This document shows, piece by piece, positions 41,501-62,500 of a DNA stretch of 64,000 bases (position 1 is its first letter; the number at the start of each line of letters is the position of its first letter). The DNA comes from Saccostrea cucullata (Eukaryota). Location of the stretch: NCBI RefSeq assembly GCF_032062105.1, contig NW_026929693.1, positions 62,001 to 126,000 on the forward strand. The letters are read 5' to 3'. The position numbers are program-made.

Positions 41501-44500
41501 GTGCAACATTGGGTATGATTAAATCAAGTACACAAATTATGCAAATATTAATATTTGTAAAGTGCTTACAAATCATGTATTTCAGCATGCTGCCTGAACT
41601 GGATTCCAAGCACGATAGCTAAAAAACATTAGATCAAGAAAATTTATAATAAAGTTAAAAATGCAAAACATTAGACAATTATTATATTATATGTTATATT
41701 TCCTCAATCGGAGCAATGTTTATGTATGAAAACTCTATACATGCGTAACATTAAATTCATTTCTTTTTACGTTTACATGTAGGTGTTTCGAATATATTTT
41801 AGGACGGTTAAACTCAAACATAGTTATATAGATGCTATCGTCACTAAAACATAGATGATGTCATCAGACGGTTTTACACATACGTAAGTGTCTACCTCTA
41901 AAGGTAAGCTCCTGTTTACCTGCCCATGGATAACTAATAGGAATTATTCCATACTGACGAAGTCATACATGATTACAGTGTTTCAAAATGAATTGAACAT
42001 AAAAAAACTCTTGTAATAGCCTATGAACACCATTTTTAATATCTAACACAAATTCTATATGTGTGAATCTAAAATTTTGATAAAGTATATAATTTCATTT
42101 CAAAAAAGATATAAAAAAAATTTTGGGTAAATAGAAAATTAAAACTTATTTCATAGCTAGTTAAGAAAATTTATAAGCCTTATTGAAACAACTTGAGAGT
42201 TATGTCCAAGACACGATGTAGTTACGATATAGACACATTACTTTTTTTTTTAGTTTACTTTAACATTTCTCCATCTTTGTGTGTTTATTACAATGCTTTC
42301 TGTTTTAAGAAGTCTTCCTTACTGTCAATATCCACGATATTGTGCCGATATCGAATCATGATTGTTCAAAGAATTATGGTTTCCATCTTGAAAACTATCT
42401 TTTATAAACTTTCCCTGTAGAGTCGATATCGACAATATCGCTTCGATATCGAATCATGTTTGCACAGCTCTTTGTAAATACCGTCCCTGTTACTTTGTAT
42501 GTGTATTTATGTTTAATTACTTTATTTTTACGAAGATTGTACCTGCCATCGATATCGACGATATCGTATCGATATCGAATCATGATTGTTAGAATATATT
42601 ACTTCACCAAACTTCACCCTAATACAAAAATCTTTATTTTTAACATATCCCATGACAATAAGTTCTGTTTCTTCATGCAACGCTTGTGCATATTTACTTT
42701 CTGATTAATTAGTTTACCCTACTATCGATATCGTCGATATCGACGATATCGTATCGATATCGAATCATAATTGTTAAACATATTTAACAGCTTTCACCCT
42801 CACCCAACATCTTACTCTAAACCTAATCCAAAACAATAACAACCACTAACCCTTTCCTTATTATAATTTAATTTCATATTCATGCTAATAATGAATGAAT
42901 TTGACATCATTTGTGACCTTGTAAAATTATGTTATACTTCATTGTGAAAATAAATTCTACAAATAGGATCGATATCGATACGATATCGTCACGGTATTGT
43001 CGATATGGACGACATCGACATAGCACAAAGTCTCATTAATGGTACCAAGTATTTCAAATTAATAGTGCTCATCATGATCGATATCGATACGATATCGACA
43101 TAATATTGTAGATATCGTCGATATCGACATCGAATTCCTTCTTTAGATAGCCAAAATACCACCCAATGATATAGGTTATATTCACTAATAAGGTAATGAT
43201 TACGATCAAACATTCACTCCTAATGACGTGTACATGAACAATAATCAAATTTATTCTTTCAATTTACAAATTTAGTCTTCTCTTAAGTATTTCATCTATC
43301 GATGCAAAAATACTCTTTGGAGGTTTACTGTCTATAGATTATAAGAACCAATTTATACCTTAGGTGTATGACAAATGAGACGACTTTAAATTTTCCACGG
43401 TGAAACTTTCCTAATTAAATGAACAATATGTCGTAATTACCTGCATATGGGGCTTACATCTCGAACTTATTCGATATTCAAAAGCATTCTCTGAATACTA
43501 CTAAATTTAAAACCGAGAGAGGTTATTGAAAGAAAAATTGATGTCCTAGGGATTTGAACAATATCGTTCAAAGTCAATATTTCCTAAATTCTGTTCCTTG
43601 TTTATTTGGGGAAAAGGCGAAGAAACGGACAGAGAGCAACCTAAATAATATCTTTAAAAAGCACACCCTGTTGATCGACCACACCCACTGTGATCACGTT
43701 GTATTAATACACTGTAAAATGAACAGAAAATTCATCCACTGTAATTTTTTTTTCAATCAAGATTGTCTTCTTTCATCAGTTTATTAAATCGTTAACTGAT
43801 AATAATCCTTTTAAAAATAAAAAAAAAGCCATAAAATATGAAAGAAAACTTTAATTAAAAAGATAATATCATGTAACAATGTTTTCTAAACAAACTACAT
43901 CTATATCACATTTAAATTACCAAGCCTGAAAATAGTGTCAAACATAGGTTGTTGATTTCTCTGAGGTATCAGACAGGATATTTTTTCAATTATTTATCTA
44001 AAGGACACGGTTTCCGTTCAAGAAACCGCCATGTACATTTCCCTCCCTTTCTTTTGACACATACAGCTTGCTGCTCCTCGCACGGTGAATACCATTCCGC
44101 GTGACACACTCGCTTCCTCTTCCATCGTCCCAGAAGCATTTCATTTACCTTTAAATATTAATTCAACATCATCTAAACATTATTCATTATTGTTTTTAGT
44201 ACTAAATGCAAGGATATACATTTACAGTGCTAAATGGTTTAAACTTGAAACTATTATTTTTCGTGATAAGAAATATGCCTTCAAACATGGGTAAAATGTT
44301 TAGTTAATCCAGAATCATTTTCATGACTATATTTCCGAAGCCATTGTGGCTTCGGAAAGTAATCATGGATTTAAGAAAATATAATTGTAATTATAAAACA
44401 ATCTGCAGATTTTTCGTTTTGTTTTGAAGAGAAAGATTTATGAAAAAAAGAAACTCTTTCAAAATCAAAAGGGAAAATTTGATACTCAAAAGTCGTATTT

Positions 44501-59500: not shown

Positions 59501-62500
59501 GTGCATGATCGTTTTTCCTCCTTTTTGATCAGTATATCAATTTCTTAAGTCTAGCGAATAAAACTACCGCTGATTTATCAGTTTATTGACCATTCGTCGA
59601 ATTTGTCTTAAATTTTATTGTTATTTATCGAGAGACTTGTTTATGATCCACTTTCTTCTTTCGTTTAGCATATGTACATGACATGTAATTTGAATTACTT
59701 CCCTTTTTGTCGCCAGATTACAACAACAGATTTTGGTGGTAAAATAAAATGTATTTTTGTTATAAAATTTGATTAAGAAAAACACAGCATATCAAAATTG
59801 TCGAATTATTGAAAATATTTATTTGAAACAAAAAATTTATAAAGGATTTTGTCTGCAACAAAAACATTCTTTATTTCATGCATTTCAATTCATGAGCTAC
59901 ACATGAAAAAAAAAAAAAAACGGCTTCGTTTTACAATGTCGTAGGAAAACGCATACAGGTAATACACTCAGGTAACATCCTGTGTATATAGGTAGTATGT
60001 ACACTAGACAGCGTCGTTCCCTCGGGGCTTCTCATCCGCTTCGAGTAAGCTCCACTCCACACCAAACTTACCTGAGGAAAACCGAACGGTTACACAGACA
60101 TCTGAAAACTTGAAGCATGGCAACTTGCTGATTAAAATAAGTTAATTTCTGTGTTGTGTGTTCAAATATTTTAAGGGCCCATATTTGTGTTTGTGTTTTA
60201 TTTAAACCGGAGAAATCTGAAATTTGTTTATGTTCATAAACATGATTTTAGTAATTTTCGAAAAGAGCAGAAAATAGAAATACATTCGAATACTAGCTAT
60301 GATATTATTTATATTCTGAATAGAAATACCTGTGATTATTTTATTAACAAGACCCCCCCCCCCCAAAAAAAAAAAAAAAATCGTCGATATTTAGTTCATA
60401 GTCTTACAGTGTAGCGCATAATAATGGAGCAACGGTATTCCTACACTTAGGCGTGTTTTGTTAAAATTTAATCGTAATTATGTATCACTATCTATCATCG
60501 TTTTTCATGCTGTTATTTATAACAGACATGTATACAGAAGTAACGGTACTTTTCTAAATGAAACCAAATGACTAATATAATCTCGCAGATAAATAAACAC
60601 ATAGCTACATGTACATGTAACTGCAACTGCACGGGCTGTGAACACCGGATTACAGTGCATATAAAGAGAAGCGATATCATGGCATTCTTTAAATTTTAAT
60701 CATACCTTTTTAGCAATTTGAAGATCATTTGGGATGGAATTATTGATTTTGAAAATAAACTTTAAGTTAATATATTCGATAAATTATTCGACTTTATTTC
60801 ATCCTATACTGTACATGTATTACTGTTAACAGACGTTTTTGAGAATTAATTAATTTTGAGTGACCTTTGGTAAAAAAAAAAAAAAGAAACATTTTTTTAT
60901 TAAACAATTTGATAAAACTTAAAAATGAATTTTTAAAGAATCCATGTAATGGTATAAATCTGTTAATATTAATGTGGTCGTAATCCTCCCCCCCCCCCCC
61001 CCCCTCATTTCGACACGATTAAAAATCGACAATACTTTACAGGTAAGAACATCTAAGCTGAAGAATAACGGTAGCGGGCCCCGCCGCGGTGTAAACACGG
61101 TCTCAGGTAGCACCGCGATCAAAACCCGCGACGGTGTAACGCGGAAAGGATTAATACATCGCGGAGGGGACGCGGTCTAATACGGGATCCGCGTTGCCTG
61201 TACTGTAGATATAAATACAGGTATATTGATTAAATGATCAGAAAGATAAGAGATAGAGAGAGCGCGTTCTGTAATTTTAAAACTATTTTATTGTTTAGAA
61301 AATTGAACGTTAACCAGGTATGTATGACATTGTATTGCCAAAAGTTAGTCTGGATGTCTTTAAAAAAACAATTTTGAAATTTATAAGCAAACAAACATGC
61401 AAACACGTATAAACAAAACATCTAATAGAAAATTGTATTATACAAGTAATTCAGATATTGTTTCTTTCTCAAAGTATAAAGATGTGATCTATGTTTGCTC
61501 TTTGACGTCAATCCATTTCTGAACAATAAATGGAAGATATTAATACTCTTGCTGATTCCAGTTTTATGCGTTATTATATTTCTTCCTTTTCAGGATTGAC
61601 AGCCAATTAAAATGGATGAAAAAGATAATACTCACCAAATCCCCCATTGCAAAAGGAATTTTGAAAACGGGGCATATAACAGGAGCAACAAAATGCGGAT
61701 TTTGTCAGTCCTAGTAAAAGTAATATTCCCAACATCACTGAATGAACCATTGCAACAAGTATCTTAGGTTTTTATGAACAAATGTAGGAACTGTCAGATT
61801 TGGGCTTGACCTAATAGCGGCTTTGACGTTTCTGGATGCTAGACCAAAGGGCAGAAAGATTTTTATCATGAAAATGTCCAATCAATAGCCCCCAGACTAA
61901 ATGTGAGGCAAAGAAAAGGTTGCATATATACTAGAGAGGGTAGAATTCCTGCAATCAGCTATATTCCGATCGCGGCTGTTTTGACTGACAACGACAAAAT
62001 TTGATCCCATGTTGTCCATAGGGAAAAGATCCTAAGCTAATGCATTTACAAGTAGATGAAGGGACGCCGTTATAAAGATTAAATAGAACAGTTGACCGCA
62101 ATTCGTGGTTAAGGTCTTCGCACTGCCAAGTCGGTTTGGGATGCAATCTATCAAATTAAGAATTATACTGTACATGGTATAAAAACAACAGGAATTTGCT
62201 ATGAATTTGTCATATTGAGTTTCGCTCTAAACTTGTATAAAAATCATGTAAAAAGTAATAAATTTCATTGTTTAATATTGAAGAAAAAATTAATTTCCGC
62301 TTTTGCTTACTTTGATCAAATGATGATGTCATGAATATTATTACATTTGACGATGCATTATAATGTTGATCCGCTAGTTAGCCCCTAAACCATCTAAATC
62401 TCTATTACCGTAACTGCACTTTACATGTATGAGGCCTAGCTTTCATACAAGTTAGTTTATACAATTCTTTCGTCAGATAAGAAAATTTCAAGTAGAAGAT

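What the first reader, a model, noticed from the sequence alone, without database searches (positions are those of the whole stretch)
43990..61750. Entire 7TM receptor gene nested antisense inside intron 2 of an unannotated TIMP gene
Seen: five short minus-strand exons assemble into an intact 214-aa TIMP. Its intron 2 (45769-57122, ~11.3 kb) contains the full plus-strand receptor (47243-53642). Known: TIMP genes are classically the nested partner, inside synapsin introns; here TIMP is the host. Inference: the receptor was inserted into or captured by the intron, with possible transcriptional interference or co-regulation of a matrix-protease inhibitor and a Cys-rich receptor.
Basis: partly seen in the sequence, partly recalled or inferred. 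Interest (0 to 1): 0.72.

Follow-up and report, generated by a model that had tools for sequence, protein, structure and literature searches.

The report
Receptor gene inside an oyster TIMP intron
An oyster gene for a protease inhibitor (TIMP) carries a complete, opposite-strand receptor gene inside one of its introns; the arrangement is real but is an ordinary kind of gene nesting, and both genes are already in the public annotation.

Summary
Five minus-strand exons (61750-61636, 57265-57123, 45768-45663, 45206-45085, 44148-43990), all with GT-AG introns, encode 214 aa. Searching with exon 2 alone returned a public 214-aa record, 'metalloproteinase inhibitor 1-like [Saccostrea cucullata]'. 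It matches all five exons exactly and is a full-length Pfam TIMP. So the TIMP is not unannotated.

Intron 2 (45769-57122, 11,354 nt) holds a plus-strand class-B (7tm_2, adhesion-like) GPCR gene with a Cys-rich ectodomain. NCBI's model for it is 550 aa and starts at an internal ATG.

No other TIMP-like exon lies in the intron, and a Crassostrea virginica orthologue spans all five exons, so one transcript is the best reading. No RNA data were available here.

Nesting of opposite-strand genes in introns is common in animals. Oysters carry about 28 TIMP genes and large class-B GPCR expansions. A second TIMP-like gene in the window hosts a transposon in its own large intron. I found no evidence for co-regulation, and conservation in other oysters could not be checked. 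Interest is low.

The parts
61636..61750 (-). TIMP exon 1 (115 nt). It holds the ATG at 61750, a 21-residue hydrophobic leader, then Cys-Ser-Cys and the third N-domain Cys. The donor is GTGAGT and the exon ends in phase 1.
   Evidence: Sequence read. It is an exact match to P0001 residues 1-38. tblastn gives E 4.5e-14.
57123..57265 (-). TIMP exon 2 (143 nt, no Cys). The acceptor is TGTAG and the donor is GTATGT.
   Evidence: P0001 residues 40-86, exact. This exon alone retrieved P0001 at 100% identity and the C. virginica orthologue P0003 at 77%.
45769..57122 (-). TIMP intron 2, 11,354 nt: the host intron. Without the receptor's 6.4 kb it would be about 5 kb, similar to intron 1 (4370 nt). It also holds two copies of a ~270-nt interspersed repeat, at 55863-56015 and 56465-56734.
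   Evidence: tblastn with P0001 or P0003 found no further TIMP-like exon in it; the best hit there was 22 aa at E 1.1.
45663..45768 (-). TIMP exon 3 (106 nt). It carries the 'SCG' Cys that aligns with Cys72 of TIMP-2.
45085..45206 (-). TIMP exon 4 (122 nt, 3 Cys). It is the only exon that reaches Pfam TIMP on its own.
   Evidence: Pfam TIMP E 0.0015 and E 0.00019 on the enclosing ORF, both below the 23.1-bit cut-off. Exact match to P0001 residues 123-162.
43990..44148 (-). TIMP exon 5 (156 nt coding plus stop TAA, 5 Cys). The first AATAAA/ATTAAA downstream is at 43855.
47243..47278 (+). Inferred receptor exon 1 (12 codons, MKIRSLIWIASL, donor GTATGC). It would complete a signal peptide with the start of exon 2. 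This part is inferred only.
   Evidence: Of 19 ATG...GT phase-0 candidates between 45769 and 49339, it ranks second for hydrophobicity and has a good donor. No homology or RNA support.
49340..50518 (+). Receptor exon 2 (393 codons, 20 Cys): a Cys-rich ectodomain. NCBI's model uses only its last 69 codons, from the ATG at 50312.
   Evidence: Sequence read. There are 468 representative relatives at E<=0.001. 22 of 150 listed also carry the 7TM part downstream. The AF2 model has pLDDT 78.4 and no PDB fold match at E<=0.001. The ESM Atlas gives a lead to PF28443 DUF8401.
52197..53642 (+). Receptor exon 3 (481 codons plus stop TAG): a juxtamembrane domain and seven transmembrane helices of class-B (7tm_2), adhesion-GPCR type.
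   Evidence: 99% identical to P0004. phmmer against PDB gives ADGRG6 at E 9.8e-5. The family profile gives ADGRL3 at E 1.2e-37. The AF2 model has pLDDT 80.7 with 7 helices between residues 233 and 479. The top Foldseek hits are adhesion GPCRs.
51477..51679 (+). A copy of the ~270-nt interspersed repeat inside the receptor's own intron 2.
   Evidence: blastn: 81% identity to 56539-56739.

Best explanation
This is an ordinary nested gene pair in the hooded oyster Saccostrea cucullata.

**Host.** The host is one of the many oyster TIMP paralogues: a secreted, 12-Cys, two-domain metalloproteinase inhibitor. It has the five-coding-exon layout typical of TIMP genes and is transcribed from the minus strand.

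**Guest.** The guest sits in TIMP intron 2 and is transcribed from the plus strand. It has three coding exons. It encodes an orphan class-B (7tm_2, adhesion/Methuselah-like) GPCR of about 886 aa with a large Cys-rich ectodomain. It belongs to a large family, which the ESM Atlas lead places mainly in molluscs.

**How it most likely works (inferred).**
- The two genes are independent transcription units.
- The receptor's promoter lies in the 1.5 kb between TIMP exon 3 and the receptor ATG.
- The whole receptor gene is removed from the TIMP pre-mRNA as part of intron 2.

**Likely origin (inferred).** A duplicated copy of an expanding receptor family landed in, or was enclosed by, an already long and repeat-accepting intron. 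No functional coupling is needed to explain what is seen.

**Shown:** the gene structures, the protein families and the containment of the coding sequence.

**Inferred:** a single TIMP transcript across the nest, the receptor's first exon, the independence of the two genes and the origin.
For: **TIMP.**
- Exon 2 alone finds the 214-aa NCBI record P0001 at 100% identity, and the C. virginica orthologue P0003 (216 aa) at 77%.
- All five exons are exact substrings of P0001.
- P0003 matches all five exon places by tblastn, at E 3e-22 to 3e-5.
- P0001 is a full-length Pfam TIMP, E 4.3e-20.
- P0001 aligns from Cys22 to residue 1 of mature TIMP-2, E 5e-5. The six N-domain Cys are aligned.

**The two halves need each other.** The three Cys of exon 1 align with the TIMP-2 Cys whose disulfide partners lie in what are exons 3 and 4 here. 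The alignment is; the disulfide map is recalled.

**No spare exons.** There are no other TIMP-like exons in intron 2.

**Receptor.**
- P0004 maps to 50312-50518 plus 52197-53639.
- In P0008 (967 aa) the exon-2 part (residues 102-467) runs straight into the exon-3 part (469-944).
- 13 of 16 long homologues, and also P0006, reach Pfam 7tm_2.
- Profile, fold model and Foldseek all point to the adhesion-GPCR 7TM.

**Ordinariness.**
- A second TIMP-like gene in the window hosts an integrase-bearing element in its own large intron.
- The same ~270-nt repeat has entered TIMP intron 2, the receptor's intron and the paralogue's intron.
- No repeat pair brackets the receptor.
- Literature: 28 TIMPs in M. 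gigas, spread by tandem duplication (PMC10755359). Intronic genes are about 6% of Drosophila genes, and 5-14% of vertebrate genes overlap (abstracts in the listing).
Against: - No transcript data were available. The 57123|45768 junction rests on homology, on the public gene model (whose evidence I cannot see) and on the lack of alternative exons.
- Exon by exon, only exon 4 touches Pfam TIMP, and it stays below the cut-off.
- The receptor's own sequence gives no Pfam hit even at E<=10. Its family membership rests on homologues, a profile and a model.
- The receptor's first exon and its UTRs are unknown. A 5' exon upstream of 45663 would make the genes interleaved rather than strictly nested.
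- Independence of the two genes is an assumption, not a result.
- Conservation of the nest in other oysters, which would argue for or against coupling, could not be checked.
Confidence: 0.78

Rival explanations
1. Functional nest. The antisense receptor gene and the TIMP are coupled, either by transcriptional interference or by shared chromatin. Matrix-protease inhibition and a matrix- or ligand-sensing receptor would then be expressed reciprocally or together.
For: Only the geometry supports it. The guest lies antisense within the host's transcribed region, and its start is 1474 nt from a host exon. Transcriptional interference by nested genes is described in print (PMC3192792, title and abstract start in the listing).
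Against: Nothing here tests it. Both genes belong to large, recently expanded families in which placement is expected to be haphazard (PMC10755359; 468 relatives of the ectodomain). The neighbouring TIMP-like gene hosts a transposon instead, which suggests that these introns simply accept insertions.
Confidence: 0.1
2. Artefact. Exons 1-2 and exons 3-5 are not one gene, or the contig is misjoined inside the intron. The nest would then be an assembly or annotation construct.
For: I saw no RNA evidence. The public model may be built on homology alone. The window is repeat-rich.
Against: - The window has no N.
- The exon order, strand, phases (0, 1, 0, 1, 0) and GT-AG sites fit one gene.
- Neither half has alternative partner exons nearby.
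- A 216-aa orthologue in another genus covers all five exons in the same order.
- The Cys of exon 1 need partners in exons 3-4 (plus the recalled disulfide map).
Confidence: 0.06
3. Dead guest. The receptor copy is a decaying duplicate (pseudogene) that merely lies in the intron.
For: Its own 7TM region does not reach Pfam 7tm_2 at E<=10, while 13 of 16 homologues do. NCBI models only 550 aa from an internal ATG. Exon 1 is only inferred.
Against: - Exons 2 and 3 are open for 393 and 481 codons. The enclosing stop-free ORFs of 412 and 490 codons have a chance of about 1e-14 and 2e-17 at this base composition.
- The splice sites are canonical.
- By construction, the alignment's invariant and near-invariant columns are numbered on residues the window's sequence carries, so it has a residue at each.
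- The fold models are confident: pLDDT 80.7 and 78.4.
- An orthologue in S. echinata is 81% identical.
Confidence: 0.05

Closest known systems
SYN-TIMP nested loci (TIMP1 in SYN1, TIMP4 in SYN2, TIMP3 in SYN3; Drosophila Timp in Syn)
   Same: A whole gene lies on the opposite strand inside one intron of another gene. A five-coding-exon TIMP is one of the partners (PMC2825198 passages).
   Different: Here the TIMP is the host, not the guest, and the partner is a class-B GPCR, not synapsin. No synapsin Pfam domain was found in the window, among 112 of 112 ORFs of >=70 aa and 362 of 483 ORFs of 40-69 aa. The SYN-TIMP nest is conserved across Metazoa; conservation of this nest is unknown.
Vertebrate TIMP-2 / TIMP-1 (PDB 1bqq_T, 1br9_A, 1uea_B)
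   Same: The Pfam TIMP match is full length. The mature N-terminus is Cys-Ser-Cys as in TIMP-2. The six N-domain Cys align. There are 12 Cys in the mature part.
   Different: Similarity is low (E about 5e-5). The six C-domain Cys only partly align: the window's protein lacks the short Cys-x4-Cys loop of TIMP-2 and has Cys at other places. The 'VIRAK' motif (recalled from memory) is replaced by AITAN.
Adhesion GPCRs (ADGRL3, ADGRG2, ADGRG6, CD97) and the Mth/Mthl branch of class B
   Same: The seven-helix domain is of the 7tm_2 type. The family profile hits ADGRL3 at E 1.2e-37. Foldseek gives TM-scores up to 0.80 on the target side. There is a large extracellular part.
   Different: Pfam finds no GPS or GAIN domain in the window's ORFs or in 16 homologues. 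The ectodomain has no Pfam hit in the local copy and no PDB fold match. Whether it sits with adhesion GPCRs proper or with Mth/Mthl, which is expanded in C. gigas (PMC4768249 passages), was not resolved.
Oyster TIMP expansion (28 canonical TIMPs in Magallana gigas and Pteria penguin)
   Same: This gene is one more member of that expansion. A second TIMP-like gene lies 3 kb away in convergent orientation, which fits local duplication (PMC10755359 passages).
   Different: In the passages I saw, that paper does not mention introns, nesting or synapsin: 0 occurrences of 'nested', 'synapsin' and 'intron'.

Membership tests
TIMP (Pfam PF00965; NTR fold plus C-terminal domain) | Full-length match to the TIMP profile above the curated cut-off. 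| tested here: met
   P0001, identical to the five exons, scores E 4.3e-20 and 72.7 bits against 23.1, over profile positions 3-183 of 183. Exon by exon, only exon 4 matches, below the cut-off at 18.8 and 21.7 bits. The other four exons gave 0 families at E<=10.
TIMP | A signal peptide followed directly by Cys1-x-Cys3, with the third Cys at position 13. | tested here: met
   The sequence has a 21-residue hydrophobic leader, then Cys22-Ser-Cys24 and Cys34. Cys22 aligns with residue 1 of mature TIMP-2. The cleavage site itself was not predicted with a dedicated tool.
TIMP | Twelve conserved Cys forming six disulfides. | tested here: inconclusive
   There are 12 Cys from residue 22 onward. The six N-domain Cys align with TIMP-2, but only part of the six C-domain Cys do. 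Pairing was not tested.
TIMP | Inhibition of metalloproteinases through the N-terminal Cys. | not testable with these tools
   This needs a protein assay.
SYN-TIMP nested locus | The TIMP lies inside a synapsin intron. | tested here: inconclusive
   No Synapsin family hit was found among 112 of 112 ORFs of >=70 aa (E<=0.01) or 362 of 483 ORFs of 40-69 aa (E<=0.005). The 121 ORFs in 1-18 kb and all ORFs under 40 aa were not scanned, and a synapsin intron could be larger than the window.
Class-B GPCR (Pfam 7tm_2, PF00002) | Seven transmembrane helices of the 7tm_2 type. | tested here: met
   The window's own exon 3 gives no Pfam hit at E<=10. Even so:
- phmmer against PDB gives ADGRG6 at E 9.8e-5.
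- The family profile that includes it gives ADGRL3 at E 1.2e-37.
- 13 of 16 homologues and P0006 reach 7tm_2.
- The AF2 model has 7 helices.
- The Foldseek top hits are adhesion GPCRs, at E down to 1.6e-7.
Adhesion GPCR (strict sense) | A GAIN domain with a GPS autoproteolysis motif just before TM1. | tested here: not met
   No GPS or GAIN Pfam hit was found in the window's ORFs, P0004-P0006 or 16 homologues. The one full-length CD97 Foldseek hit has rmsd 14 and a TM-score of 0.40, which gives no support.
Nested (intronic) gene pair | The guest's whole transcription unit lies inside one intron of the host. | tested here: inconclusive
   The coding sequence 47243-53642 lies inside 45769-57122. 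UTRs, the promoter and the first exon are not established without RNA data.

The most novel reading that the evidence does not exclude
The nest is old and functional. The same DUF8401-type class-B receptor would sit antisense in intron 2 of the orthologous TIMP across oysters. Transcription of one gene would throttle the other, forming a switch between matrix-protease inhibition and matrix or ligand sensing during shell repair or immune challenge. A bolder variant is that the whole TIMP cluster lies in a synapsin intron beyond the window, giving three levels of nesting.
Probability: 0.06. Interest if true: 0.5.

Novelty: new member of a known kind. Interest (0 to 1): 0.15.

Why it matters
It matters little as a phenomenon. 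Opposite-strand genes inside introns are common, and both gene families here are large and mobile in oysters.

It has three modest uses:
- It corrects the idea that the TIMP is unannotated.
- It suggests that the public receptor model lacks about 336 N-terminal residues (a signal peptide and most of a Cys-rich ectodomain).
- It points to a large receptor-ectodomain family, seen mainly in molluscs, with a confident predicted fold but no solved relative.

If the nest proved conserved across oysters, it would be a tractable case for studying host-guest transcriptional interference in a non-model animal.

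Tried and rejected
**Searches that gave little**
- Exon-by-exon Pfam search: 4 of 5 TIMP exons gave nothing at E<=10, so short exons alone cannot carry the family call.
- Pfam on the receptor's own ORFs gave only chance-level hits (NP1-WLL, DUF2427, E about 0.2).
- Rfam at gathering threshold and ARAGORN over the whole window each gave 0 hits. No RNA gene hides in the intron, and the ~270-nt repeat is not recognisably tRNA-derived.
- Fold search of the ectodomain model against PDB gave 0 matches at E<=0.001 out of 83 with E<=10.

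**Tests of specific ideas**
- Repeat search for a pair of direct or inverted repeats bracketing the receptor, as a mark of a mobile insertion, found none.
- Search for exons 2 and 3 of the second TIMP-like gene by tblastn with BLOSUM45 and by a Cys-Gly motif found nothing.
- A search with that gene's exon-4 ORF for longer proteins found 0 of 19 candidates. By the tool's own caveat this is weak evidence.

I went back to stop-free ORFs.

**Left unchecked**
- I considered and rejected a human or contaminant origin: identical named oyster records settle the organism.
- The closed collections (metagenome contigs, viral contigs) were not used.
- Genome contigs holds only bacteria and archaea, so synteny in other bivalves stayed unchecked.
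- Supplementary files were not opened. Figure S3 of PMC10755359 (TIMP locations) and Additional file 1 of PMC2825198 might bear on TIMP clustering and on SYN-TIMP loci in lophotrochozoans.

Full report
**What is there**

The window has 32.6% G+C and no N. On the minus strand between 61750 and 43990 I read five exons with canonical splice sites:

| Exon | Coordinates | Length |
|---|---|---|
| 1 | 61750-61636 | 115 nt |
| 2 | 57265-57123 | 143 nt |
| 3 | 45768-45663 | 106 nt |
| 4 | 45206-45085 | 122 nt |
| 5 | 44148-43990 | 159 nt, including stop |

They sum to 645 nt, which is 214 codons plus the stop. The exon start phases are 0, 1, 0, 1, 0, and the introns are 4370, 11354, 456 and 936 nt.

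**Identity of the host gene**

Taken alone, only exon 4 touches Pfam TIMP, and it stays below the cut-off: E 0.0015, and E 0.00019 on its enclosing ORF. The other four exons give nothing at E<=10.

A search with exon 2 alone (47 aa, asking for longer proteins) returned three proteins:
- P0001: 214 aa, 'metalloproteinase inhibitor 1-like [Saccostrea cucullata]' (NCBI, UniRef), 100% identical.
- P0003: 216 aa, 'Metalloproteinase inhibitor 3-like', Crassostrea virginica, 77% identical.
- P0002: an unnamed 91-aa record that looks like exon 2 read through into its flanks.

Each exon's whole-codon translation is an exact substring of P0001, at residues 1-38, 40-86, 87-121, 123-162 and 163-214. The two split codons read Ala39 and Gly122, as in P0001.

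The family evidence for P0001 is as follows:
- It is a full-length Pfam TIMP, E 4.3e-20.
- It aligns from Cys22 with residue 1 of mature TIMP-2, and the six N-domain Cys are in register. The six C-domain Cys align only in part.
- It has 12 Cys from residue 22 onward.

So the organism is the hooded oyster, the gene is a TIMP, and it is already annotated.

**Is it one gene?**

No RNA data were within reach, so this rests on four indirect arguments:
- tblastn with P0001 and P0003 finds no other TIMP-like exon inside intron 2. The best hit there is 22 aa at E 1.1.
- The orthologue from another genus covers all five exon places in the same order.
- The phases fit one reading frame.
- The three Cys of exon 1 align with the TIMP-2 Cys whose disulfide partners lie in the parts encoded here by exons 3 and 4. 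The alignment is; the disulfide map is recalled. Neither half would therefore be a viable TIMP alone.

**The guest**

Two long plus-strand ORFs lie in intron 2: 49319-50557 (412 codons) and 52170-53642 (490 codons). Their chance of being stop-free is about 1e-14 and 2e-17.

The second ORF retrieved three proteins:
- P0004: 550 aa, 'uncharacterized protein LOC134281835 [Saccostrea cucullata]', 99% identical.
- P0005: 'adhesion G protein-coupled receptor E2-like [Saccostrea echinata]', 380 aa, 81% identical.
- P0006: unnamed, 492 aa, 45% identical.

P0004 maps to 50312-50518 plus 52197-53639. NCBI therefore starts the protein at an ATG inside the first ORF.

That ORF is open and homologous far upstream of that ATG:
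- A library-wide search found 468 relatives at E<=0.001.
- Of the 150 listed, 22 also carry the 7TM part downstream in the same chain.
- In P0008 (967 aa) the two parts abut, at residues 102-467 and 469-944.

It runs exon 1 47243-47278 (inferred), exon 2 49340-50518 and exon 3 52197-53642, giving 886 aa. Exon 1 is the weak point. It is one of 19 ATG...GT candidates and was chosen for its hydrophobicity and donor site.

**What the guest is**

Its own sequence gives no Pfam family. The other evidence agrees on the 7TM domain:
- 13 of 16 long homologues, and P0006, reach 7tm_2.
- phmmer of exon 3 against PDB gives ADGRG6 at E 9.8e-5.
- The family profile gives ADGRL3 at E 1.2e-37, and secretin-type receptors only at about 1e-6.
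- The AlphaFold2 model of exon 3 (pLDDT 80.7) has seven helices between residues 233 and 479.
- Its best Foldseek matches are adhesion-GPCR 7TM domains.

No GPS or GAIN domain was detected. I therefore call it class-B, adhesion/Mthl-like, and not a strict adhesion GPCR. An expansion of Mth/Mthl receptors in C. gigas is in print (PMC4768249 passages).

The ectodomain model has pLDDT 78.4 and pTM 0.73. It has no PDB fold match at E<=0.001. The ESM Atlas gives a lead, at score 0.92, to clusters carrying PF28443 DUF8401, mostly molluscan. A full-text search for 'DUF8401' found 0 papers.

**Surroundings**

A second TIMP-like gene lies on the plus strand, convergent with the first:
- An exon-1-like piece at 28417-28540 has a signal peptide and a Cys-x-Cys ... 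HPQ motif. It is 124 nt and ends in phase 1.
- An exon-4-like piece starts at 39430. It is 122 nt, the same length as TIMP exon 4, and its ORF scores Pfam TIMP E 1.2e-5.
- An exon-5-like piece starts at 40836 and has only four Cys.

I found no equivalents of exons 2 and 3 and no annotated protein (weak evidence).

Its large intron holds a 429-codon integrase-core ORF at 34201-35487 on the minus strand (Pfam rva_4, E 9e-27). That ORF is flanked by inverted arrays of a 21-nt tandem repeat at 31602-32236 and 36069-36716.

A ~270-nt interspersed repeat occurs four times:
- twice in TIMP intron 2
- once in the receptor's own intron
- once, at 95% identity, in the paralogue's intron

No repeat pair brackets the receptor.

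No synapsin family hit appeared among 112 of 112 ORFs of >=70 aa or 362 of 483 ORFs of 40-69 aa. The 121 such ORFs in 1-18 kb were not scanned, and neither were shorter ORFs.

**Comparison with what is known**

- TIMP genes nested in reverse orientation in synapsin introns, from sea anemone to human, and five-exon nested TIMPs, are documented (PMC2825198 passages; PMC4860685 passages). Pohar et al. 1999 was seen only as a citation.
- Oysters have the largest known TIMP repertoires: 28 in M. gigas, spread by tandem duplication (PMC10755359 passages).
- Intronic genes are about 6% of Drosophila genes, and 5-14% of vertebrate genes overlap (abstract starts in the listing).
- Searches for 'TIMP, synapsin, nested' (53 papers, 15 listed) and 'nested gene, oyster, intron' (5 papers) showed no listed title describing a TIMP as host. 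I opened only the two TIMP papers among them, by passages.

**Verdict**

The nest is real, as far as sequence can show. The TIMP is not unannotated. The 'role reversal' is a curiosity rather than a surprise, in a genome with many TIMP paralogues, long repeat-accepting introns and expanding receptor families. Co-regulation, the origin of the nest and its conservation remain untested.

The useful by-products are two. One is a probable 5' extension of the public receptor model. The other is a Cys-rich ectodomain family with a confident predicted fold and no solved relative.

Noticed in passing
window 28417-41018 (+): 28417-28540, 39430-~39551, 40836-~41018: A second TIMP-like gene lies convergent with the first. 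It has exon-1-, exon-4- and exon-5-like pieces with matching phases and an identical exon-4 length (122 nt). No equivalents of exons 2 and 3 were found, exon 5 has only 4 Cys, and no annotated protein was retrieved. It may be unannotated or decaying.
   Followed up: partly
window 31602-36716: A large element sits inside that paralogue's intron. It has a 429-codon ORF with an integrase core domain (34201-35487, minus strand; Pfam rva_4, E 9e-27). The ORF is flanked by inverted arrays of a 21-nt tandem repeat (31602-32236 and 36069-36716, about 23 copies each).
   Followed up: partly
window 49340-50311 (+): The public receptor model (P0004, 550 aa) starts at ATG 50312. The same exon is open and homologous to relatives for 324 more codons upstream, so the public model probably lacks most of the ectodomain and the signal peptide.
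   Followed up: yes
window 49340-50518 (+): The Cys-rich ectodomain has 468 representative relatives, some with the module repeated up to about 6 times. Its AF2 model is confident (pLDDT 78.4). It has no hit in the local Pfam copy and no PDB fold match. The ESM Atlas lead is PF28443 DUF8401 / Somatomedin-B-like.
   Followed up: partly
window 56465-56734, 51477-51679, 55863-56015 (+); 29154-29423 (-): A ~270-nt interspersed repeat has four copies at 73-95% identity. The youngest pair is 95% identical. ARAGORN finds no tRNA in the window and Rfam finds no family.
   Followed up: partly
window 10226-13258 and 19557-23526 (+): Two genes look TRIM-like: B-box zinc finger hits at 11283-11552 and 19557-19955, and an NHL repeat at 23218-23526. 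The second is interrupted by reverse-transcriptase ORFs at 20135-21982 (RVT_1, zf-RVT).
   Followed up: no
window 16155-18996 (-): A run of minus-strand ORFs of 77-156 aa looks like a degraded retroelement. None reached a Pfam family except a weak SAP hit.
   Followed up: no
window 1147-1833 and 12187-13258 (+): ORFs with an actin/HSP70-like ATPase flavour: a weak BcrAD_BadFG/MreB-like hit at 1147-1833, and by eye an HSP70-type N-terminal motif at 12187-12633.
   Followed up: no
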